64,000 bases of DNA from Deltaproteobacteria bacterium (lineage in GTDB: Bacteria > Desulfobacterota > Deferrimicrobia > Deferrimicrobiales > Deferrimicrobiaceae): the NCBI GenBank assembly GCA_016219515.1, contig JACRMU010000065.1, positions 1,705 through 65,704 of the forward strand. The letters are read 5' to 3'. This document shows positions 10,514 to 49,903 of this stretch, one piece after another. Position numbers and translations under genes: made by a program. A model generated the notes under the pieces. The model searched no databases, was not told where the DNA came from, and was given only the letters and a program-made list of their open reading frames with translations. Every line of letters begins with the position of its first letter. The first letter of the stretch is position 1.

Positions 10514-13500
10514 TCACCCCTTGCTCTTGATATTGACCATGAACGCCTTGGTTTCCGGGATCATGGTGTTGGCGTCTCCGACGGTCGGCGTGAGAAGGTT
10601 CGCTGAATCGCCGACGGCCGGTGTGAACCACCCGAAGCACCAGGGCATCCCCACCTGATGGACGGTGGAGTTGGCCACCTTGAACGGCTTGAAGCGGGGG
10701 GTGACAACGGCGACGGCCTCGATCTTTCCCCTCGCCGAGGAGACCTCCAGGAGGTCTCCGCTCTTGATGTTCTTCTCCTTGGCCAGCTCCACGGACATTT
10801 CAACGAACTGCCGGGGCTGAAGCTCCAGCAGCCAGGGGACGTTCCGGGAGAGGACCCCGGTCTGCCAATGCTCCGTGACCCGGTACGTCGTGGCCACGAA
10901 CGGGAACCGGGTGTCGCACGAGGCGAATACGTCTTCGGGCATCCCGTCGGCCGAGAAGATCTTGGCGGCGGGGTTTACGCGCTGCTTGGACAGAGGGTTC
11001 TCCTGGACCGGGCACTCCAGCGGCTCGTAGTGCTCGGGGAAGGGGCCCTCCTTCAGGCCGGGCCCGAAGATCGCGGCGACCCCGTCCGCCCGCATGATGT
11101 ACGGCTTCTTCCCCTCCTTCTCGTTGCCCATCGGGGGCCACGGCCCGTCGGGGACGTCTCCCTCCCACTTGCCGAACTTGCCGTCCGGCATGGGGGCGGT
11201 CGGGTTCCAGAAGATGACCGCCTTCTTCACGTTGAACGGCTTGCCGTCGAGGTCGACGGAAGCGCGGTTATAGATGATCCGGCGATTGACCGGCCAAGCC
11301 CACGCCCACTCGGAGAAGAGGCCCAGGCCCGTGGGGTCTTTCTTCCCCCGCCGCGCCATCATGTTCCCGTTTTGGTTGTAGCTCTGGCAGTAGATCCAGC
11401 TCCCGCAGGAGGTCGTGCCGTCGGCCTGGAGCAGCGCGAAACCGGGCACCAGCTCCCCCTTCTTGCCCAGGAGCTTCTCCTTGGGCGGCTTCTGCCCGGG
11501 TTTCGGCTTGTTCGGCACGTCGGCCAGGAAGTAGCCGTTGATCTCCTTGGCCACCGCGTGGATGTCCACCGTCTTGACGGTGCCGTCGGCCCGCTTGAAG
11601 CCGTACCCCCAGGCGAGGTTCATCAGCGGATCGGGGAAGGCCCCTTTCTCCTTGGCGTAGAGCCCCTTGATCCGGTAGAACAGGTCGTTCATGATCTCGG
11701 CGTCCGGCCGGGACTGCCCCAGGGGTTTGACCGCCGGGACGCGCCACTGCGCCATGCGCGACGAGTTCGTGATGCTCCCTTCCTTCTCGAACGAGGCGGC
11801 GGCCGGCAGGAAAAAAACCTCCGTCTTGATCTTGGCGGGATCCACCCCCGGTCCCTTCCAGAACGATGCGGTCTCGTTGTCGAAGAGGTTGACCGTCACC
11901 ATCCATTCCAGGGTGGCAAGCCCCTTGCGGACCTTCCCCGCGTTGGTGCCGGAGCAGGCGGGGTTCTGGCCCCAGGCGAAGAACCCCTTGTACTTTCCGC
12001 GCGCCATGTTGTCGAAGAGCATGATCCAGGAGGCGTTCATGCCAGGGTCGGTCTTGGGCAGCCAGTGGTATCCGAAGTCGTTCTGCTTGGTCGCCTTGGC
12101 CCCGTAGATCGCCTTGAGGTAGGAGACGATGTACTTGTTCCGGTTCCCCCACCAGTTCGCGCTCATCGGGTCTTTCGTCTTGGGCGTGTACTTCTCGATG
12201 TAGGCGGTGAGGTCCTTGATGTCCGCCGACGGAACCGGCATGTAGCCGGGCAGGATGTGGAAGAGAACGCCGTGGTCGGTCGACCCCTGGACGTTGGACT
12301 CGCCGCGCATCGCGTTCACGCCGCCGCCGGCCACGCCCATGTTGCCCAGCAGGAGCTGGATGATCGACATCGCCCGGATGTTCTGGGTCCCCACGGTGTG
12401 CTGGGTCCATCCCATCGCGTAGAGGGAGGTCCCGGCCCGGTCCGGCTTCCCCGTAGATGCATACGCCTCGTAGACCTTGAGGAGCGTTTCCTTCGGGGTG
12501 CCCGTGATGCTGGAAACCATCTCCGGCGTGTACCGGGAGTAGTGCTTCTTCATCAGCTGGAACACGCAGCGCGGATTCGAGAGGGTTTCGTCCTTGACGA
12601 TCTTGTCGTCCGTGTCCTTCTGGAAGGACCACTTCTTGGCGTCATAGGAGCGCTTCTTGGCGTCGTAGCCGGAGAAGAGGCCGGCGAGCTCCCCGGGGCC
12701 TTTGAAGTCCGGGCCGACCACGTAGCTCGCGTTGGTGTACTTCTTGACCGCCACATCCATGTAGAGCTTGTTCTGAAGAATGTAGTTGATCATCCCGCCG
12801 AGGAAGGCGATGTCGGTTCCCGAGCGCAAAGGAGCGTAGATGTCGGCCTTCGACGCGCTTCGGGTGAAGCGCGGGTCCACCACGATGATCTTTCCGCCCG
12901 CGTCTTTCGCCTTCATGATCCACCGGAAGGCGACCGGGTGGTTCTCCGCGGGGTTGGCCCCCATGATGAGCACTACGTCAGCGTTCTTTACGTCGATCCA
13001 GTGATTCGTCATCGCGCCTCGTCCGAACGACTCTGCCAGAGCCGCTACAGTGGCGCTGTGTCATATTCGCGCCTGGTGCTCGATGGCGACCAGGCCCAAC
13101 CCCCTCATCATCTTCTGGAGGAGATAGCACTCCTCGTTGTCCAGGGCGGCGCTCCCGACGTGGGCGATCCCCATCGTCCGGTTGACGACCGCCTCGATCT
13201 CCTTCTCCACTTCCTTGTCGCCCACCTTCTCCTTGACCTTGATCCTGCTCTTGGCCTGGAAGGTGGCGTCCCGGGTCTTTTTCGTCCTCTTGGCGATCTC
13301 GTCGAGCGCCCAGTCCCAGGAGACTTCCTTCCACTCCTTCTCCCCCGGGGCCCGGTAGAGCGGCTTGGTCACCCGCGCCGCGTTGTCCCGGAGCTGAATG
13401 ACGGAAGAACCCTTCGGGCAGAGCGACCCCTCGTTGATGGGGTGGTCCGGGTCCCCCTCGGCGTTGATGAGGTTGCCGTTCAGCGAGTGGAGGATCAATC

Positions 13501-13663
13501 CGCATCCGACCGAGCAGTAGGGGCAGATGCTCGTCGACTCCTTCGCGTACCGGATCTGCAGGTCCTGGGCTTTCGCCTCGACCGGCTCGAGGGAGAGGCC
13601 GAGTACGCCGGCGGCCAGTCCCGCCCCGGAGAGCTTGAACAATTCCCTCCTGGAAATTCCCAT
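10514..13663 (-). CDS. fdhA: periplasmic formate dehydrogenase catalytic (alpha) subunit, selenocysteine-containing, Tat-exported
   Basis: Track ORFs 13061-13846 and 10514-13012 are one gene joined by an in-frame TGA at 13061-13063: …AIEHQARI-[U]-HSATVAALAESFG… is the canonical FdnG Sec site. Tat motif MGISRRELFKLSGAGLAAG. RBS aaggagg 7 nt before ATG 13663. Sec is codon 201, comparable to E. coli FdnG. Confidence 0.85.
13061..13063 (-). other. selenocysteine (UGA) codon of fdhA
   Basis: In-frame TGA within the conserved EHQARI-U-HS motif. Read directly from the sequence. Confidence 0.85.
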
Positions 13664-13921
13664 GCGTTGCACCTCCTTTTCTTGAGGCGAGTTAATGAAT
13701 AAAAAAAAAGGAATCCATGCCTGGATTCTTGGAATTCGCGGGGTGTGGAATCGGAGGTGCGAAGAAATATTATAAAATGGTTTTATAAAGATCAATAAAA
13801 AAATTACTTGGGAAACAGTATGTTTTCTCAATAGAATGAATTTCATAGTATTTCTGTAGGGTTTCGTTCGGTACCCACTGAATCGTGAAAAAAAATGCGT
13901 TTTATTTTGTATTGACTCGAT

Positions 13922-13945
13922 CGTTATAAATCATATTATATAACG
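13922..13945. promoter_or_regulatory. ModE-type operator-like palindrome CGTTATAaatcatattaTATAACG in the fdhA/modE divergent AT-rich region
   Basis: 24-nt near-palindrome with CGTTATA/TATAACG arms, resembling E. coli ModE boxes (CGTTATATT-N-ATATAACG type). Lies 68 nt upstream of modE and inside the roughly 350-nt AT-rich region upstream of fdhA. Confidence 0.5.
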
Positions 13946-14012
13946 CTCGACAAGCAGGTCCGCGTGCAGGCGCAGGTCGTTTTCTAAAAAAATAAGGAGG
14001 GCACGGCCGCCG

Positions 14013-14825
14013 ATGCGCCGGGCAAGGAACAAGCTGGAAGTCTCGGGGGCGGTCTGGCTCCATAAGGCGGACGCCGTCCTCCTGGGAAGCGACCGGATCG
14101 GGCTGCTGGAGAAGATCGAAGAGAACGGCTCGATCACGAAGGCGGCCCGGGCGGCGGGGATCAGCTACAAGACGGCATGGGATGTCGTGAGCGCCATCAA
14201 CAACCTCTCGGAAAAGCCGCTCGTCCGGCGGACGACGGGCGGCAAGGGGGGAGGAGGTACCGTTCTCACCGAGGAAGGGAGGGAGGTCGTCCGAAGATAC
14301 CGGGTCCTGCAGCGGGAGCACGAGAGGTTCCTCGGGGGGCTTTCGGAAAAAATCGGAGACGTGGAGAACTTCTATCGGTTTTTGCGGAGGATCGCCATGA
14401 GAGTGAGCGCGAGAAACACGTTTTTGGGGAAGGTCGCGGGCGTCAAGAAAGGGGCCGTCAGCGCGGAGGTGACGCTTTCCCTCAAGGGGGGCGATACGGT
14501 CGTCGCGGTCATCACGAAGGAGAGCGTGGAAAGCCTGGGCCTCCGGAAGGGGATGGAGGCGTACGCCATCATCAAGGCGAGCTCGGTCCTGCTGGGGAAG
14601 GATCTCCACGAAGCGAGGATCAGCGCGCGGAACCTCCTGTGCGGCACCGTGGAGAAGCTGGCGGAAGGCCCGGTGAACGAGGACGTGACCGTGAAACTCT
14701 CGGGAGGGAACGTACTGACCTCCGTCATCACCCGGGAAAGCGCGAAGAAGCTGGCACTCAAGCCCGGCGACCACGTCTGCGCCGTCATCAAGGCGTCCAG
14801 CGTCATCCTGGGGGTGAGCGGGTGA
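14013..14825 (+). CDS. modE: molybdate/tungstate-responsive transcriptional regulator ModE (HTH + two TOBE/Mop domains)
   Basis: N-terminal ModE HTH (SITKAARAAGISYKTAWD) followed by two Mop-domain repeats (…VTLSLKGGDTVVAVITKESVESLGL… and …VTVKLSGGNVLTSVITRESAKKLAL…). Strong RBS taaggaggg. Confidence 0.85.
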   Translation: MRRARNKLEVSGAVWLHKADAVLLGSDRIGLLEKIEENGSITKAARAAGISYKTAWDVVSAINNLSEKPLVRRTTGGKGGGGTVLTEEGREVVRRYRVLQREHERFLGGLSEKIGDVENFYRFLRRIAMRVSARNTFLGKVAGVKKGAVSAEVTLSLKGGDTVVAVITKESVESLGLRKGMEAYAIIKASSVLLGKDLHEARISARNLLCGTVEKLAEGPVNEDVTVKLSGGNVLTSVITRESAKKLALKPGDHVCAVIKASSVILGVSG

Positions 14826-39479: not shown

Positions 39480-39687
39480 CCGATATTTCCCGAAGGTATT
39501 GGAGCGTCCTCTGCGCCTCCTCCGGGGAGAGCTTCGAGATGGCGAAGCCGGCATGGAGGATGACCCAGTCTCCTTCCCGGACCTCTTCGAGGAGCAGGAC
39601 GGAGATCTCCCGGCGCGCTCCCCCTACCTCCACGGTCGCCGATGTTCCCGCGACCGACATCACCCTTGCGGGCACCCCCAGGCACAT
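39460..39687 (-). CDS. hypC: [NiFe]-hydrogenase maturation chaperone HypC
   Basis: Begins with the MCLGVPA signature. 75 aa. Confidence 0.85.
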   Translation of the reverse strand: MCLGVPARVMSVAGTSATVEVGGARREISVLLLEEVREGDWVILHAGFAISKLSPEEAQRTLQYLREISDAAEIH

Positions 39688-39691
39688 CGCC

Positions 39692-42052
39692 CTACCCCCC
39701 TGATATCGTTTGCGCTGCGAAATACGCCTGTCCCAGCGAGATCCCGCCGTCGTTGGCGGGGACCTCCCGGTGGATCAGCGTCTTGAGCTTTCTTTGCCGG
39801 AACCCGGTGAGAAGCTTCCTTAACAGATAGACGTTCTGGAAGACCCCCCCCGAGAGAAGCACGTGCCCGGCCCCCGTCCCTTCCGCGAGCCGGACCGTTA
39901 CCTCGAGAACTATCTCCGCCACAGTGTCGTGGAACTTCCGCGCGATGACCGGCGCGGGTGTCCCGGCGCTTGCGTCGGAAACGACTCCCGCGATCAGGCC
40001 CTTCCAGTCTATCCCAAGACGCCCGGCTCCGTCGCGGATCGTGTAGGGATAGGTCCCCGTCCCCCGTCCCTTTCGAATGCAACCTTCCAGCAGCATGGCG
40101 GCCTGCCCTTCGTAGCTGGCCTTGCGGCAGATGCCCGCTAGCGCGGAAGCGGCGTCGAAGAGGCGTCCGCAGCTGGAGGACGGCACAACGTTCACCTTCT
40201 TCGAGATCGCGTCGACGAGCAGGCCGATCCGTTCGGGGCCGATATCGGGAAAACGGGAGGCGGCGATCCTTCCCGCCTCCGCGGGTCCGAACGTATCGTG
40301 GAGGAACCCCACCGCGGTCCTCCACGGCTCCCGGACGGCGGCGTCGCCCCCCTGCAGCGGGAAGTAGTCGAAGGCGGCTGCCCGTTTCATCTCCATTCCG
40401 TCGATGGCGAAAAATTCACCGCCCCAGATTGCGCCGTCTTCCCCGTAGCCGGTCCCGTCGAAGGAGACGCCCACCGCCTTTCCGGAGAATCCGGACTCCG
40501 CCAGCAGGGCGTAGAGATGCGCCTTGTGATGCTGGAGGGAGAGGATGCGCCCGGCGCCGATATTTTCCGCGAAGGAGGTCGTGAAGTAGGCGGGATGCGT
40601 ATCGCGGCAGACCGCGGATAGCTCGGCGTCGAGGAACCGCCGGAAAAAATCGAAGGTCTCCTTGTAGAATTCCCGCACGGGAATCTGGTCCAGGTCGCCC
40701 AGGTGCTGGGACAGGTAGGCGAACCCCTCCTTGAGGATGCAGAAAGTGCTTTTCAGTTCACCTCCCAGGCCCGCCACGCAAAGTTTCTTAACCCCAGGGA
40801 CGTTCCTGATCGTTAAGTAATTCGGGGGGATCTCAAGCTTACTCGCGTTTTCAGGAACGTCCCCGGTCTTTAGCAGCACAGGGGCGGGGACGAAGCCGCG
40901 GGCGCGGCGGAGGGGGTAGATCTTCCCGCCGATGCTCCGGACCACGGTGTCGTCGCTTCGCTGCACGATCTCCCGGTTGTGGAGGAGAAAGAGGTCCGCG
41001 ATGCCGGAGAGGCGTGCGATGGCTTCATCGTTGCCGGTGGCGATCGGCTCGTCGGTCGCGTTCCCGCTGGTCATGACGAGCGGGAGGTCCAGCCGGTCGA
41101 AGATCAGGCGGTGCAGCGGGGTGTAAGGGAGAAAGAGCCCGAGGTTCGCAAGCCCCGGCGCCACCGACGGCGCCAGCCGGGCGTTCCCCAGGGTTTCCAC
41201 CAAAAGGACGGGCGCGGACGGAGAGGAGAGGATCGCCTCGTCGTCTTTCGAAAGGCGCGCAAGGGAGCGGGCGGCGGCGAGGTCCGTCACCATCACCGCG
41301 AACGGCTTCTCCTCCCGGTGCTTCCGCTCGCGGAGTTTGCGGACCGCTTCTTCGTTCGTCGCGTCCGCGGCCAGGTGGAAGCCGCCGAGCCCCCGGACGG
41401 CGACGATCTTTCCGGACCGGAGGGCATCGGACACGCACCCCACCGGGTCATCCGTCGCGACCGGTTTCCCCTCCCGCGTCGCCACGGACAGCGACGGCCC
41501 GCAGTCCGGGCAGGCGTTCGGCTCCGCGTGGAACCGCCGGTCCCCGGGGTCCTCGTATTCCCTCCGGCACCGCGTGCAGAGAGGGAAAACCGACATGGAA
41601 GTGTTCTCGCGGTCGTAGGGGAGCCTGCCGACGATCGTGAACCGGGGGCCGCAGCCGGTGCAGTTGATGAACGGATAACCGAAGCGCCGGTCGTTCGGGT
41701 CGGACAGCTCCCGGAGGCAGGCGGGGCACAAGGCGATGTCCGGCGGGATCGTGGAGAGGGCGGTCCCCGACTGCTCGCTCTTCTCGATGGCGAAGCCGGA
41801 GAAGCCTTCGCGCGCCACGCGCTGTTCCGTGATGCGCGCCACGCGGGCGGCGGGCGGCAGCTCTTCGCGGAACAGCTCCCGGAAGCGGCGGATCGCCTCC
41901 GGATCCCCTTCGAGGTGGACGGTCACGCTCCCCGGAGTGTTCGTCACATACCCGCGCAGGCCGCTGCGGACGGCGATCCGGTAGATGAAGGGGCGGAACC
42001 CCACCCCCTGGACCACACCGCGAATCGTAAGACGCAAGGCGACGGCCGGCAT
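39692..42052 (-). CDS. hypF: carbamoyltransferase HypF
   Basis: Acylphosphatase domain (VQGVGFRPF), two Zn-finger pairs (CPACLREL…CTGCGPRF; CTRCRREY…CPDCGP), YrdC and Kae1-like domains. True start ATG 42052 (MPAVALRLTIRG). The track's 1240-aa ORF continues upstream as an antisense artefact over hypB/hypA. Confidence 0.85.
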   Translation of the reverse strand: MPAVALRLTIRGVVQGVGFRPFIYRIAVRSGLRGYVTNTPGSVTVHLEGDPEAIRRFRELFREELPPAARVARITEQRVAREGFSGFAIEKSEQSGTALSTIPPDIALCPACLRELSDPNDRRFGYPFINCTGCGPRFTIVGRLPYDRENTSMSVFPLCTRCRREYEDPGDRRFHAEPNACPDCGPSLSVATREGKPVATDDPVGCVSDALRSGKIVAVRGLGGFHLAADATNEEAVRKLRERKHREEKPFAVMVTDLAAARSLARLSKDDEAILSSPSAPVLLVETLGNARLAPSVAPGLANLGLFLPYTPLHRLIFDRLDLPLVMTSGNATDEPIATGNDEAIARLSGIADLFLLHNREIVQRSDDTVVRSIGGKIYPLRRARGFVPAPVLLKTGDVPENASKLEIPPNYLTIRNVPGVKKLCVAGLGGELKSTFCILKEGFAYLSQHLGDLDQIPVREFYKETFDFFRRFLDAELSAVCRDTHPAYFTTSFAENIGAGRILSLQHHKAHLYALLAESGFSGKAVGVSFDGTGYGEDGAIWGGEFFAIDGMEMKRAAAFDYFPLQGGDAAVREPWRTAVGFLHDTFGPAEAGRIAASRFPDIGPERIGLLVDAISKKVNVVPSSSCGRLFDAASALAGICRKASYEGQAAMLLEGCIRKGRGTGTYPYTIRDGAGRLGIDWKGLIAGVVSDASAGTPAPVIARKFHDTVAEIVLEVTVRLAEGTGAGHVLLSGGVFQNVYLLRKLLTGFRQRKLKTLIHREVPANDGGISLGQAYFAAQTISGG

Positions 42053-47177: not shown

Positions 47178-48521
<1,344 letters not shown>

Positions 48522-48547
48522 GGGCGGATTCGTAAACGGTTCGGGCC

Positions 48548-48571
48548 GGGGAGGCCTTTCGGGGCCTCCCT
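48548..48571 (+). terminator. GC-rich hairpin (GGGAGGCC-tttcgg-GGCCTCCC) about 27 nt after the gdhA stop; candidate terminator
   Basis: Perfect 8-bp stem read from the sequence, but no clear U-tract follows. Confidence 0.35.
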
Positions 48572-48811
48572 TGCCCGGCGAATAGTGACATTCTTCCTTG
48601 TCGATCGGGTCTTGCCGTTTTACCGGGTTGAATCCAGCCGGAAAAAAGCGATTTTGTATGGTGGGAAAATCATTTCCTACTTATGAGATGTTTTACCCAA
48701 CGTTATGGGTAAGTTCTAAATTTTTTCCCACCAATGGATATGAAAATCGGTCTTGTTAGGGATTGTCTTTTGTTATCGGATAATTAACCGATATTCCCTT
48801 CAGATGTGGCC

Positions 48812-48827
48812 TGGCATGATAGTTGAA
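48812..48827 (+). promoter_or_regulatory. sigma54-type -24/-12 promoter-like element TGGCATgatagTTGA about 100 nt upstream of the PEP-CTERM protein gene
   Basis: Matches TGGCAC-N5-TTGC at 9 of 10 core positions, with correct GG-N10-(G)A spacing. Located in a low-GC intergenic region. Confidence 0.4.
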
Positions 48828-48925
48828 GAATAAACAAAATTAAGGATTGCTTCGCAATGCCGCGATAACAAAGTAAGTCCCCCGCAGGGGAAAAAATCGA
48901 TGGCCACCGGAGGCGGCGAACAACA

Positions 48926-49903
48926 ATGAAGCGAATTCTCATCCCCGTATTGGTATTCGTTGCCGCAATGAGCGTCTCGACGTGGTCGCATGCCACGACC
49001 CTGCTGGGAGACGCCGCGCTTTATAATGTGTTCGTTTTCGACGACATGAACGTCGGGTCGGACACCCAGGGCCGCGTCGCGGTCGGCGGGAATTTTACCG
49101 CTGCAAGTTACAGCATCGGCACCCTTTCATCGCCTGCACAATACAGCCTTGTCACCGGGGGGAACGTTGTTTATGGCCCCGGCTCCATTCGCCATGGCGG
49201 TATATATTCCGGAGGGAACGTCACATTAAAAAACTATTCCGTTGCAGGCGACGTAGTCGCGAGGGGTACGGTGACTACGATAAATGGCGGGACGGTCACC
49301 GGAACCGTCCAGGCGGGTTCGTCTCTTGCCGGTCCCGTAAATTTCACGGCCGCCGAGATCTATCTCAAGGGGGTATCCTACGATTTATCGCATGGGGTAA
49401 TGAACGGCACCACGACGGTCTCCCCCTGGCATGCAATCACTCTGTCCGGCAGCAATGCCGTGAATTCGTTTTACCTGAGTGGCACCGACCTTGCGAATGC
49501 GTCAAGTCTTACATTCAATTTCGCCTCCGATAAGATCGGCATCGTCAACGTTTCCGGGACAGACTGCGATTTCAGCGGGTTCGGATTTTTCGGCGGGGGC
49601 CTGGCCGAAAATATCCTTTTCAATTTTTATGAAGCGGAGAACCTCACCATCGGCAGCATCGGCGTAAGAGGAAGCATTCTGGCGCCTTACGCGGACATTA
49701 CGTTCAACTCCGGAGTGGTCCATGGCAGCGTGATCGCGGAATCGATCGTCGGGGGCGGACAATTCAATCAGAATCTATTCGACCATGAAATTCCCGGCGG
49801 CAGCCAGCCGGTGCCGGAGCCGGCCACGATGCTCCTTTTCGGCTCAGGGCTGGCCGGGCTTGCCGCGACGCGGCTCAGGAAGGGTGGTAAGATGCCTCGT
49901 TAA
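48926..49903 (+). CDS. choice-of-anchor A domain protein with C-terminal PEP-CTERM sorting signal, secreted
   Basis: Signal peptide. LGDAALYNVFVFDDMNVGSDTQGRVAVGGN matches the choice-of-anchor A N-terminal signature. C-terminus VPEPATMLLFGSGLAGLAATRLRKGGK is PEP + TM + basic tail. Confidence 0.8.
   Translation: MKRILIPVLVFVAAMSVSTWSHATTLLGDAALYNVFVFDDMNVGSDTQGRVAVGGNFTAASYSIGTLSSPAQYSLVTGGNVVYGPGSIRHGGIYSGGNVTLKNYSVAGDVVARGTVTTINGGTVTGTVQAGSSLAGPVNFTAAEIYLKGVSYDLSHGVMNGTTTVSPWHAITLSGSNAVNSFYLSGTDLANASSLTFNFASDKIGIVNVSGTDCDFSGFGFFGGGLAENILFNFYEAENLTIGSIGVRGSILAPYADITFNSGVVHGSVIAESIVGGGQFNQNLFDHEIPGGSQPVPEPATMLLFGSGLAGLAATRLRKGGKMPR

What the first reader, a model, noticed from the sequence alone, without database searches (positions are those of the whole stretch)
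48572..48925. Low-GC regulatory island with nested inverted repeats and a sigma54-like promoter in front of a choice-of-anchor-A PEP-CTERM protein
The roughly 350-nt intergenic region is AT-rich (contrast the 65% background). It contains GGTGGGAAAA…TTTTCCCACC (48660-48669 / 48723-48732) enclosing TACCCAacgttaTGGGTA (48694-48711). It also has a 20-nt palindrome TATCGGATAATTAACCGATA (48774-48793) and TGGCATgatagTTGA (48812-48826) matching the -24/-12 consensus. PEP-CTERM/exosortase cargo genes are classically sigma54/EBP-controlled, so the distal inverted repeat is a plausible enhancer site. No exosortase or EBP is in the window. The atypical base composition could also indicate horizontal acquisition of the cargo gene.
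Basis: partly seen in the sequence, partly recalled or inferred. Interest (0 to 1): 0.5.

Follow-up and report, generated by a model that had tools for sequence, protein, structure and literature searches.

The report
Sigma-54 enhancer promoter for PEP-CTERM gene
The AT-rich gap in front of this surface-protein gene is most likely an ordinary sigma-54 "enhancer plus promoter" switch, and the same switch sits with identical spacing in front of an unrelated PEP-CTERM gene in sister genomes, so it extends an already predicted regulon rather than revealing a new kind of system.

Summary
All four motifs are at the stated coordinates, and the gap is about 0.39 GC against 0.648 for the window.

Comparison with relatives sorts the motifs:
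- TGGCATGATAGTTGA (48812-48826) is the longest invariant block of the intergenic region, in orthologues whose spacer DNA is only about 55% identical.
- The cores of the outer inverted repeat are conserved as DNA sequence, not as pairing.
- Only the left half of the "palindrome" is conserved. It looks like an IHF site.
- The inner TACCCA/TGGGTA repeat is not clearly conserved.

The same three blocks occur in front of an unrelated PEP-CTERM gene family (DUF4394/DUF6923) in three contigs. Their positions match to within 3 nt: about -115, -65 and -24/-12 relative to the predicted start.

More distant choice-of-anchor-A homologues carry canonical TGGYAY-N5-TTGC promoters.

I read this as a sigma-54, activator-dependent, single-gene operon of the type Haft et al. 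predicted in 2006. It has a lineage-specific enhancer motif and an unusual -12 TTGA.

No activator, rpoN or exosortase gene lies in the window. A weak RAGATH-25 match is chance. Recent horizontal acquisition is not supported. Interest is modest.

The parts
48542..48577 (+). GC-rich hairpin just after the glutamate dehydrogenase stop codon (48521). It is the likely terminator that insulates the PEP-CTERM gene from read-through. It lacks a clean T-run.
   Evidence: Inverted repeat I2, 15-nt arms, 87% complementary. GGGGAGGCCTTTCG and GGCCTC are invariant in the orthologues. The upstream gene is identified as GDH.
48617..48622 (.). Conserved GTTTTA block, about -221 from the predicted start. Function unknown. 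It could be a third, weak upstream site.
   Evidence: Invariant in window, L005, L006 and L008. A second copy, GTTTTACC at 48690, is window-specific.
48659..48682 (.). Distal enhancer (UAS) site, about -179 to -156. Core TGGGAAAA at 48662-48669. It is a quasi-dyad GGAAA-N4-TTTCC at 48664-48677.
   Evidence: Perfect 11-nt inverted repeat with 48723-48733. The core is kept in 5 of 6 lineages without compensatory changes. PWM 21.4 bits, and the window holds no sites at or above 14 bits outside this region in 64 kb. A matching WTTTCC at -166/-167 occurs in L229 and L230.
48710..48733 (.). Proximal enhancer (UAS) site, about -128 to -105. Core TTCTAAAT-T-TTTTCCCACC at 48714-48732. This is the right arm of the outer inverted repeat.
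   Evidence: TTCTAAAT and TTTTCC are invariant. WTTTCC lies at -115 (range -112 to -116) in 9 loci covering two unrelated PEP-CTERM gene families. A PWM built from choice-of-anchor-A loci alone scores 19.7-22.7 bits at this position in L145, L229 and L230, against 3 hits at or above 19 bits in 1.29 Mb of unrelated loci.
48773..48786 (.). Conserved TTATYnRRTA block at -65, forming the left half and centre of the '20-nt palindrome'. It approximates the IHF consensus WATCAANNNNTTR and lies between enhancer and promoter. Proposed DNA-bending site.
   Evidence: TTATYVRRT lies at -64/-65 in 8 of 9 loci. L145 has TATCAGATA at the equivalent place. The right arm of the palindrome is not kept (helix 3: 4-5 of 7 sequences unpaired at five pairs).
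48812..48826 (+). Sigma-54-type promoter TGGCAT-gatag-TTGA. GG is at 48813-48814 (-25/-24). GA is at 48825-48826, where the consensus has GC (-13/-12).
   Evidence: Longest invariant intergenic block. L007 changes the spacer only. L145, L229 and L230 have TGGCAY-N5-TTGAA. No sigma-70-like promoter was found in 48400-49000.
48838..48838 (+). Predicted transcription start (plus or minus 2 nt). It is inferred from the -12 position and has not been mapped.
   Evidence: Inference from the standard sigma-54 geometry (own knowledge). All distances are relative to this point.
48838..48925 (+). 5' leader of 88 nt. It holds conserved AATTAA (48838-48843) and GCGAT (48862-48866), a small hairpin CCCC/GGGG (48879-48890), and the Shine-Dalgarno GGAGG (48909-48913) within the invariant CGGAGGCGGCGA.
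   Evidence: Conserved blocks. No covarying structure. The fold is not better than shuffles, z = -0.8. The RAGATH-25 hit at 48853-48891 scores 25.3 bits against a gathering score of 49 and is absent from the orthologues.
48926..49903 (+). Choice-of-anchor A / PEP-CTERM cargo protein, 325 aa. It is the single gene driven by the module.
   Evidence: TIGR04215 6.4e-52, PF20597 2e-47, PF07589 and TIGR02595 above cut-off. The next gene downstream in the orthologues is convergent.

Best explanation
The region is the control region of a single-gene operon read by RNA polymerase carrying sigma-54.

**Proposed mechanism.**
- Sigma-54 holoenzyme binds TGGCAT-N5-TTGA (48812-48826) as a closed complex and cannot open the DNA by itself.
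- An NtrC-family enhancer-binding ATPase, encoded outside the window, binds two about 17-20-nt sites. Their consensus is TTCTAAATATTTTCCCAYC. They lie in inverted orientation, centred near -117 and -168, about five helical turns apart.
- The AT-rich DNA between them and the promoter includes an IHF-like block at -65. It bends so that the activator oligomer touches sigma-54 and drives open-complex formation.
- Transcription then starts near 48838. An 88-nt leader carries a strong ribosome-binding site.
- The product is a secreted choice-of-anchor-A protein whose PEP-CTERM tail is processed by an exosortase.

**Regulon.** The same module controls at least one other, unrelated PEP-CTERM cargo gene in this lineage. 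The lineage is Deferrimicrobia-like, named 'Deltaproteobacteria bacterium' in NCBI. The module therefore defines a PEP-CTERM regulon.

**What is shown.** The motifs, their conservation, their fixed spacing, and their recurrence at a second gene family.

**What is inferred.** Sigma-54 binding, the start site, activator binding to the repeats, IHF bending, and the identity of the activator. A PrsR-like response regulator is the obvious candidate.
For: **Conservation in orthologues.** The -24/-12 element is the longest invariant block in an intergenic region that is otherwise 53-57% identical among orthologues. In L007 the changes fall only in the N5 spacer.

**Recurrence at a second gene family.**
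- The module recurs upstream of a non-homologous PEP-CTERM gene (DUF4394/DUF6923) in L145. L145 was found by a DNA pattern, but the PEP-CTERM gene and extra matching bases were not specified in that pattern.
- It also recurs in L229 and L230. These were reached through protein homology only, and their TGGCAC would not have matched my DNA pattern.
- L229 comes from the same sample as the 98% orthologue L002. L230 comes from the same sample as the 84% orthologue L003.

**Fixed geometry.** Spacing is rigid across nine loci:
- proximal site at -112 to -116;
- TTATY block at -64/-65, matched in eight of the nine;
- distal site at -166/-167 or -173 to -176.

**Motif specificity.** A PWM made from choice-of-anchor-A loci finds exactly one site at or above 19 bits in each of L145, L229 and L230, at that place. 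Background is 3 hits per 1.29 Mb. The window's only sites at or above 14 bits all lie in this region.

**Distant homologues.** They carry canonical promoters: TGGTACGGATGTTGCA, TGGTATGGGTGTTGCA, CGGTACACATATTGCT and TGGTATGGATATTGCA, at -78 to -103. TTTTCCGGAWT repeats lie upstream of them.

**DNA sites, not an RNA stem.** The repeat arms change without compensation.

**No rival promoter.** No sigma-70-type promoter was found in the region.

**Literature.** Haft et al. 2006 predicted this architecture (PMC1569441): single-gene operons, more than 200 nt of upstream DNA, an activator motif, a 32-92-nt spacer, then a sigma-54 site 23-221 nt before the start codon. RpoN dependence and a mapped start site are published for a PEP-CTERM gene (PMC9850573).
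Against: - The -12 dinucleotide is GA, not the nearly invariant GC. This holds in every member of this clade, so by a strict consensus the site is atypical.
- Over the whole window, sigma-54 consensus matches with up to 2 mismatches are no more frequent than chance.
- No rpoN, enhancer-binding protein or exosortase gene is in the 64 kb. Their presence in the genome is therefore unverified.
- The enhancer motif does not contain the TTTACA that ends Haft's motif 1.
- The IHF-like block has 1-2 mismatches to the consensus in every lineage.
- No transcript or binding data exist.
Confidence: 0.75

Rival explanations
1. The promoter is read by a sigma-70-family factor (housekeeping, ECF or FliA-type). 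The conserved upstream blocks are ordinary operator sites for a classical activator or repressor. The -24/-12 resemblance is fortuitous.
For: - The -12 element lacks the consensus C.
- Two conserved leader blocks, AATTAAKGAT and GCGATA, are spaced roughly like a sigma-28 promoter (TAAG-N16-CGCGATAA). This is my own reading.
Against: - The scan found no sigma-70-like -35/-10 pair.
- The conserved block is compact (15-17 nt) with a variable 5-nt centre. This is the sigma-54 signature. An ECF or sigma-70 promoter would span about 30 nt.
- The leader blocks are not shared by the DUF4394 loci, which nevertheless keep TGGCAY-N5-TTGAA.
- Distant homologues have textbook TGGYAY-N5-TTGC sites at the same place.
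Confidence: 0.08
2. Sigma-54 reads the promoter, but the conserved TTTTCCC repeats are not the activator's enhancer. They bind a repressor or a nucleoid or architectural protein that silences AT-rich DNA. The activator would act from solution or from another site such as GTTTTA (48617).
For: - The motif differs from the published PrsR box ending in TTTACA.
- The region is strongly AT-rich.
- An additional conserved block lies at -221.
Against: - Two sites sit five helical turns apart, at a rigid -115 and -167 from the promoter, with a bend site between. This is the classical enhancer geometry.
- Silencers do not usually require such fixed phasing.
- Distant homologues also have repeated TTTTCCGGA-type sites 100-200 nt upstream of canonical sigma-54 promoters.
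Confidence: 0.1
3. The main regulatory element is a structured RNA in the leader. It could be a RAGATH-25-like motif or an unrecognised riboswitch or attenuator. Alternatively, the nested inverted repeats could fold as an RNA or DNA hairpin.
For: - Rfam RAGATH-25 hit at 48853-48891, E = 7e-4 in a 701-nt search.
- A small conserved CCCC/GGGG hairpin.
- The repeat region folds better than shuffles, z = -3.9.
Against: - The hit is 24 bits below the gathering score and lacks the first hairpin. It is absent from orthologues L003, L005 and L006.
- No Rfam family reaches threshold in the window.
- The leader has no covariation, and its fold is ordinary, z = -0.8.
- The repeats lie upstream of the promoter, and their arms mutate without compensation.
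- The leader is not shared by the second gene family.
Confidence: 0.04
4. The low-GC island is a relic of recent horizontal transfer or of a small mobile element with terminal inverted repeats. It would have no dedicated regulatory role.
For: - The gene has GC3 of 0.67, against 0.85-0.94 for its neighbours.
- In L145 two PEP-CTERM genes lie beside a primase, an integrase and a tRNA.
Against: - The GDH / cargo gene / CBS / aconitase order is kept down to 65% protein identity.
- The DUF4394 gene is likewise syntenic in L229 and L230.
- Specific blocks are invariant while the spacers drift, which shows selection.
- The repeat is unique in the 64 kb. I saw no target-site duplication.
- Low GC3 is a class property of cargo genes here.
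Confidence: 0.03

Closest known systems
PEP-CTERM cis-regulatory region of Proteobacteria: motif 1 (predicted PrsR box) plus motif 2 (sigma-54 site), with PrsK/PrsR/PrsT (Haft et al. 2006, PMC1569441)
   Same: - It sits upstream of a PEP-CTERM gene that is a single-gene operon with a 404-nt intergenic region.
- An upstream repeated motif is followed by a spacer of about 76 nt. The published range is 32-92.
- Then comes a 17-nt sigma-54-type site, 97-99 nt before the start codon. The published range is 23-221.
- It recurs before several unrelated PEP-CTERM genes of the same lineage.
   Different: - The upstream motif is TTCTAAATATTTTCCCAYC and lacks the TTTACA 3' end given for motif 1.
- By contrast, a Pseudodesulfovibrio homologue (L055) does show TGTAAAG/CTTTACA.
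- The -12 element is TTGA rather than TTGC.
- Co-occurrence with PrsR, PrsK and PrsT cannot be checked from this window.
RpoN1-dependent pepA promoter of Aquincola tertiaricarbonis RN12 (PMC9850573)
   Same: A PEP-CTERM cargo gene with a -24/-12 promoter and an upstream predicted enhancer.
   Different: - In Aquincola, RpoN dependence and the start site were measured. Here both are inferred.
- The Aquincola promoter is TGGCAC...CTGCTT with the consensus GC.
- The organism is a betaproteobacterium, and the cargo protein is unrelated.
Classical enhancer/IHF/sigma-54 promoters such as nifH, glnHp2 and Pu (textbook knowledge, not tested here)
   Same: - Activator sites lie 100-180 bp upstream, on the same helical face.
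- An IHF-type bend site lies between enhancer and promoter.
- The -24/-12 core is compact.
- Spacing is rigid.
   Different: - The half-site sequence (GGAAA/TTTCC type) matches none of the activator sites I know, such as NtrC, NifA, DctD, XylR or NorR.
- The A at -12 is rare among characterised promoters.
RAGATH-25 RNA (Rfam RF03050)
   Same: An A-rich stretch followed by GUCCCCCG...CAGGGGA at 48853-48891.
   Different: - The score is 25.3 bits against a gathering score of 49.
- The first hairpin is missing.
- It is not found in the orthologues.
- I treat it as a chance resemblance.

Membership tests
Sigma-54 (-24/-12) promoter | GG and GC doublets separated by exactly 10 nt within TGGCAC-N5-TTGCW | tested here: inconclusive
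   TGGCAT-N5-TTGA has the GG, the spacing and the TTG, but the -12 C is replaced by A. The same TTGA occurs in all nine clade loci. Canonical TTGC occurs in distant homologues.
Sigma-54 (-24/-12) promoter | Conservation of the two elements with a free spacer, at a suitable distance upstream of the gene | tested here: met
   15-nt invariant block. Spacer-only changes occur in L007, L145, L229 and L230. The block lies 100 nt before the start codon.
Sigma-54 (-24/-12) promoter | Dependence on RpoN and on an AAA+ enhancer-binding protein encoded in the genome | not testable with these tools
   No GAFTGA motif or Sigma54_activat domain appears in the window. The rest of the genome is not available.
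Haft 2006 PEP-CTERM regulatory region (PrsR box + sigma-54 site) | Located upstream of a PEP-CTERM gene that forms a single-gene operon with more than 200 nt of non-coding DNA | tested here: met
   404-nt gap, a terminator hairpin upstream and a convergent gene downstream.
Haft 2006 PEP-CTERM regulatory region (PrsR box + sigma-54 site) | Motif 1: a 17-nt motif ending in TTTACA, sometimes repeated | tested here: not met
   There is no TTTACA or TGTAAA in 48572-48925, only TTTACC twice. The conserved repeated motif is TTCTAAATATTTTCCC. The full logo of motif 1 is in a figure I could not read, so only its stated 3' end was compared.
Haft 2006 PEP-CTERM regulatory region (PrsR box + sigma-54 site) | Spacer of 32-92 nt between motif 1 and the sigma-54 motif, and 23-221 nt from the sigma-54 motif to the start codon | tested here: met
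   The proximal site ends at 48733 and the promoter block starts at about 48810, giving about 76 nt. The distance from 48826/48828 to 48926 is 97-99 nt.
Haft 2006 PEP-CTERM regulatory region (PrsR box + sigma-54 site) | Same motif pair before several PEP-CTERM genes of one genome, and co-occurrence with PrsR, PrsK and PrsT | tested here: inconclusive
   The motif pair is present before a second, unrelated PEP-CTERM family in contigs from the same samples as the orthologues. That the contigs belong to the same genome is inferred from sample origin and GC (0.63) only. The Prs genes are not testable.
IHF binding site | WATCAANNNNTTR with an upstream A/T tract, placed between enhancer and promoter | tested here: inconclusive
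   The window has TATCGGATAATTA (2 mismatches), L007 has TATCCAATAGTTA (1) and L006 has TATCAAATGTATA (1). Position is fixed at -65. No binding data exist.
RAGATH-25 RNA (RF03050) | Score at or above the Rfam gathering threshold, with both hairpins present | tested here: not met
   25.3 bits against 49. The first hairpin is collapsed. There is no hit in the orthologues.
PEP-CTERM / exosortase cargo protein, choice-of-anchor A | Choice-of-anchor A domain plus a C-terminal PEP motif, a transmembrane helix and a basic tail | tested here: met
   TIGR04215 at 176.8 bits (cut-off 29). PF07589 at 30.4 bits (cut-off 20.7). TIGR02595 at 19.9 bits (cut-off 16). The tail reads ...VPEPATMLLFGSGLAGLAATRLRKGGKMPR.

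The most novel reading that the evidence does not exclude
This Deferrimicrobia-like lineage may run its PEP-CTERM regulon through an activator whose DNA specificity differs from the PrsR box: a GGAAA/TTTCC-type dyad, TTCTAAATATTTTCCC.

Its promoter class may also have a -12 position fixed as A (TTGA). In model systems the -12 element sets how tightly sigma-54 holds the closed complex. A clade-wide -12 A could therefore mean a differently tuned, perhaps leakier or more activator-sensitive, class of sigma-54 promoters.

The AT-rich promoter plus a low-GC3 cargo gene might travel together as a self-contained cassette.
Probability: 0.2. Interest if true: 0.5.

Novelty: new variant of a known kind. 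Interest (0 to 1): 0.3.

Why it matters
It gives a concrete, testable cis-regulatory module (two enhancer sites, a bend site and a -24/-12 core, with fixed spacing) for PEP-CTERM cargo genes in a poorly studied, uncultured lineage.

It extends the 2006 prediction of sigma-54 control of the exosortase system to a different enhancer sequence.

The PWM and spacing rules can be used to list the regulon in complete genomes. They can also be used to pair the motif with its activator by phylogenetic profiling.

The invariant -12 TTGA is a small natural experiment on the sigma-54 -12 switch.

Beyond that, the finding is what a specialist would expect.

Tried and rejected
**RNA explanations.**
- An Rfam scan of the region at a permissive threshold gave only a sub-threshold RAGATH-25 hit. 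It was not reproduced in the orthologues.
- No Rfam family reached threshold in the whole window.
- Literature searches for RAGATH-25 found nothing.
- The leader shows no covariation and an ordinary folding energy.

**Sigma-54 consensus search in the window.** It was not enriched over shuffles, so it is useless as stand-alone evidence.

**GTDB genome scan with the protein family.**
- The closest species representatives are only 47-51% identical: a Nitrospirae MAG and Ca. Sulfobium.
- Most hits are Ignavibacteria with no sigma-54-like site.
- The source species is not among the representatives, so rpoN, PrsR and the exosortase could not be looked for.

**Metagenome DNA-pattern scan.** 57 hits were returned. 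Almost all are chance matches in AT-rich or coding DNA. Only L101 (an orthologue) and L145 are informative. L091 and L131 remain doubtful.

**Viral-contig scan.** 82 loci with 80 pattern matches were returned. None has a PEP-CTERM gene downstream, and all look like chance.

**Sigma-28 reading of the leader blocks.** I considered it. The match is weak, and the blocks are not shared by the second gene family.

**MITE or mobile-element reading of the inverted repeat.** Rejected. The repeat is unique in the window, sits at a syntenic position, and I saw no target duplication.

**Full logo of Haft's motif 1.** I could not recover it. Only its TTTACA end is given in the text.
Full report
**What is in the sequence**

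The gap between a glutamate dehydrogenase gene (47259-48521) and a choice-of-anchor-A/PEP-CTERM gene (48926-49903) is 404 nt. From 48600 to 48900 its GC content falls to about 0.39, in a window of 0.648. It is one of the three lowest-GC spots in 64 kb.

- The outer inverted repeat is a perfect 11-mer, 48659-48669 with 48723-48733.
- The 'palindrome' at 48774-48793 forms 9 of 10 pairs.
- The promoter candidate is TGGCAT-gatag-TTGA at 48812-48826. It has A where the sigma-54 consensus has the C of the -12 GC.

In shuffles of the region, a perfect repeat of 11 nt or more appears 1.65% of the time. TGGCAY-N5-TTGM on the right strand appears 0.16% of the time. A looser consensus search over the whole window is not enriched (11 found, 13 expected). 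Sequence alone is therefore only suggestive.

**Source and neighbourhood**

A transketolase in the window is 100% identical to a protein of an NCBI MAG named 'Deltaproteobacteria bacterium'. It is about 81% identical to Candidatus Deferrimicrobiaceae proteins.

The window is ordinary chromosome. It encodes formate dehydrogenase, hydrogenase maturation genes, glutamate synthase, hybrid histidine kinases, aconitase and pentose-phosphate genes.

It holds no sigma-54 activator. No GAFTGA motif was found in six frames, and there was no Sigma54_activat hit. It holds no exosortase and no second PEP-CTERM gene.

**Orthologues**

The protein has close relatives in metagenome contigs (98, 84, 84, 83, 71, 65 and 57% identity). 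Where the contigs are long enough, the gene order is kept: PPDK-like, Fic, GDH, cargo gene, convergent hypothetical, CBS, aconitase.

I aligned the upstream regions. The DNA is only 53-57% identical to the window outside the 98% relative. A few blocks are nevertheless invariant:
- the terminator hairpin after GDH;
- GTTTTA (48617-48622);
- GGAAA in the left repeat arm;
- TTCTAAAT and TTTTCC in the right arm;
- TGGCATGATAGTTGA, the longest invariant intergenic block and exactly the -24/-12 candidate;
- AATTAA and GCGAT in the leader;
- the ribosome-binding region CGGAGGCGGCGA.

In L007 the promoter reads TGGCATAAGAGTTGA. Only the spacer differs, which is the pattern expected of a sigma-54 site.

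The repeat arms change without compensation. L006 has TAGGAAAAT against ATTTTCCCA, and L008 has TGGGAAATT against ATTTTCCTA. They therefore behave as two DNA sites rather than as a stem.

The right half of the 20-nt palindrome is not kept. Its left half, TTATYnRRTA, is kept.

The inner TACCCA/TGGGTA repeat already differs in the 98% relative and is not clearly conserved. The alignment is uncertain in that stretch.

I scanned metagenome contigs for TAAATNTTTTCC, 65-95 nt, then TGGCAT-N5-TTGA. Most of the 57 hits are chance matches in AT-rich or coding DNA. Two are informative.
- L101 is an orthologue.
- L145 comes from the same sample as L101. It carries the pattern before a 520-aa PEP-CTERM protein with DUF4394/DUF6923 domains and no similarity to choice-of-anchor A. 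A second PEP-CTERM gene follows it.
- Beyond the bases I specified, L145 matches the orthologue consensus in ATGTTC-TAAATATTTTCC. It also has TATCAGATA at the place of the TTATY block.

Homologues of that protein were then reached through protein similarity only. One is in L229, from the same sample as the 98% orthologue L002. Another is in L230, from the same sample as the 84% orthologue L003. Both contigs have GC 0.63.

Both show ATGTTCCAAWTATTTTCCCATC, CAATATTATTAARTRGRTAA and TGGCAC-N5-TTGAAC. Because they read TGGCAC, my DNA pattern could not have selected them.

Distances were measured from a start site predicted 12 nt after the -12 position.
- The proximal WTTTCC lies at -115 in six loci and at -112 to -116 in the other three.
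- The TTATY block lies at -64/-65 in eight of the nine loci.
- The distal site lies at -166/-167 or -173 to -176.

A PWM built only from choice-of-anchor-A loci finds exactly one site at or above 19 bits in each of L145, L229 and L230, at that position. Unrelated loci give three such hits in 1.29 Mb. In the 64-kb window, the only sites at or above 14 bits all lie in this region.

**Distant homologues**

Choice-of-anchor-A/PEP-CTERM genes at 49-57% identity lie in other genomic contexts and have canonical sites:
- TGGTACGGATGTTGCA (L087);
- TGGTATGGGTGTTGCA (L088);
- CGGTACACATATTGCT (L009);
- TGGTATGGATATTGCA (L032).

These lie 78-103 nt before the start codon. Repeated TTTTCCGGAWT-type sequences lie further upstream.

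A Pseudodesulfovibrio homologue (L055) shows TGTAAAG/CTTTACA repeats before CGGACCGGTTTTTGCT. This resembles the published PrsR box.

Ignavibacteria and cyanobacterial homologues show nothing of the kind.

**Mechanism**

The best reading is a sigma-54-dependent, activator-dependent promoter.
- Two activator sites lie in inverted orientation about five helical turns apart.
- An IHF-like bend site lies at -65.
- The -24/-12 core follows.
- An 88-nt leader has no special structure.
- The operon is a single gene, insulated by an upstream hairpin.

The motifs, their selective conservation, their rigid phasing and their recurrence at a second cargo family are shown. Binding by sigma-54, by an NtrC-family activator and by IHF, the start site, and the activator's identity are inferred.

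**Comparison with what is known**

Haft et al. 2006 (PMC1569441) made these points:
- most PEP-CTERM genes are single-gene operons with more than 200 nt of upstream non-coding DNA;
- in Proteobacteria, a 17-nt motif ending in TTTACA is followed after 62.8 plus or minus 10.6 nt (range 32-92) by a sigma-54 site;
- that site lies 71 plus or minus 38 nt (range 23-221) before the start codon;
- this DNA signature co-occurs with PrsR, PrsK and PrsT.

RpoN dependence and a mapped start site were later shown for pepA of Aquincola (PMC9850573). Geobacter, a former deltaproteobacterium, has PrsK/PrsR and five PEP-CTERM genes (PMC7726332).

The present locus fits the architecture and both distance ranges, at about 76 nt and 97-99 nt. 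Its upstream motif lacks TTTACA, and its -12 is TTGA. I therefore do not file it as a PrsR-box member. I file it as a lineage-specific variant of the same kind of system.

**Rejected or weak alternatives**

- A sigma-70-type promoter: none was found.
- A leader RNA element: RAGATH-25 scores 25.3 bits against a threshold of 49. It is absent in the orthologues, and the leader does not covary.
- A mobile-element relic or recent horizontal transfer: the locus is syntenic in all lineages. Both cargo families have GC3 of 0.63-0.71 against 0.81-0.94 for neighbours at two different conserved loci. The atypical composition is therefore an old, class-wide property and not a sign of recent arrival.

**Verdict**

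The finding is an expected type of regulatory region with two modest twists: a new enhancer motif and an invariant -12 A.

Noticed in passing
window 10514-13846 (-): The formate dehydrogenase alpha subunit appears as two ORFs joined by an in-frame TGA at 13061-13063 (...EHQARI*HSATVAAL...). This is almost certainly a selenocysteine codon, not a stop.
   Followed up: partly
window 13847-14012: This is the lowest-GC spot of the window. It is the divergent region between FdhA and a ModE-like regulator (HTH_1 + TOBE, 14013-14825). It holds the inverted repeat CGTTATAAATCATATTATATAACG, which looks like a molybdate-regulator operator.
   Followed up: no
window 49480-49494: A perfect sigma-54 consensus, TGGCACCGACCTTGC, lies inside the PEP-CTERM coding sequence. 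It is partly kept in the orthologues, but it is coding (LSGTDLAN). Probably chance.
   Followed up: partly
window 48926-49903; L229 5001-6572; L230 5001-6449; L145 1367-4016: PEP-CTERM cargo genes of two unrelated families have GC3 of 0.63-0.71, while their neighbours have 0.81-0.94. This holds in every lineage examined. It is a persistent class property, not a sign of recent transfer.
   Followed up: partly
L145 1367-13651: Two tandem PEP-CTERM genes (DUF4394/DUF6923 and NHL-repeat) lie next to a primase-helicase, a tyrosine integrase and a tRNA gene. The cargo genes therefore sit beside an integrated element.
   Followed up: no
L091 2276-2373 (-): A GC-rich contig (0.59) has CTAAATATTTTCC and TGGCATACTCGTTGAAG in a non-coding stretch, with no ORF directly downstream. 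It could be a further regulon member driving a non-coding transcript, or a chance match.
   Followed up: partly
window 48617-48624 and 48690-48697: GTTTTACC occurs twice. The first copy (GTTTTAY) is conserved in all orthologues at about -221. It is one base from the TTTACA that ends the published PrsR box.
   Followed up: partly
window 39555-41984: A 2.4-kb stretch between HypD and HypA/HypB was not called as a gene by my GC3 filter. It is probably HypF and/or HypC. I did not examine it.
   Followed up: no
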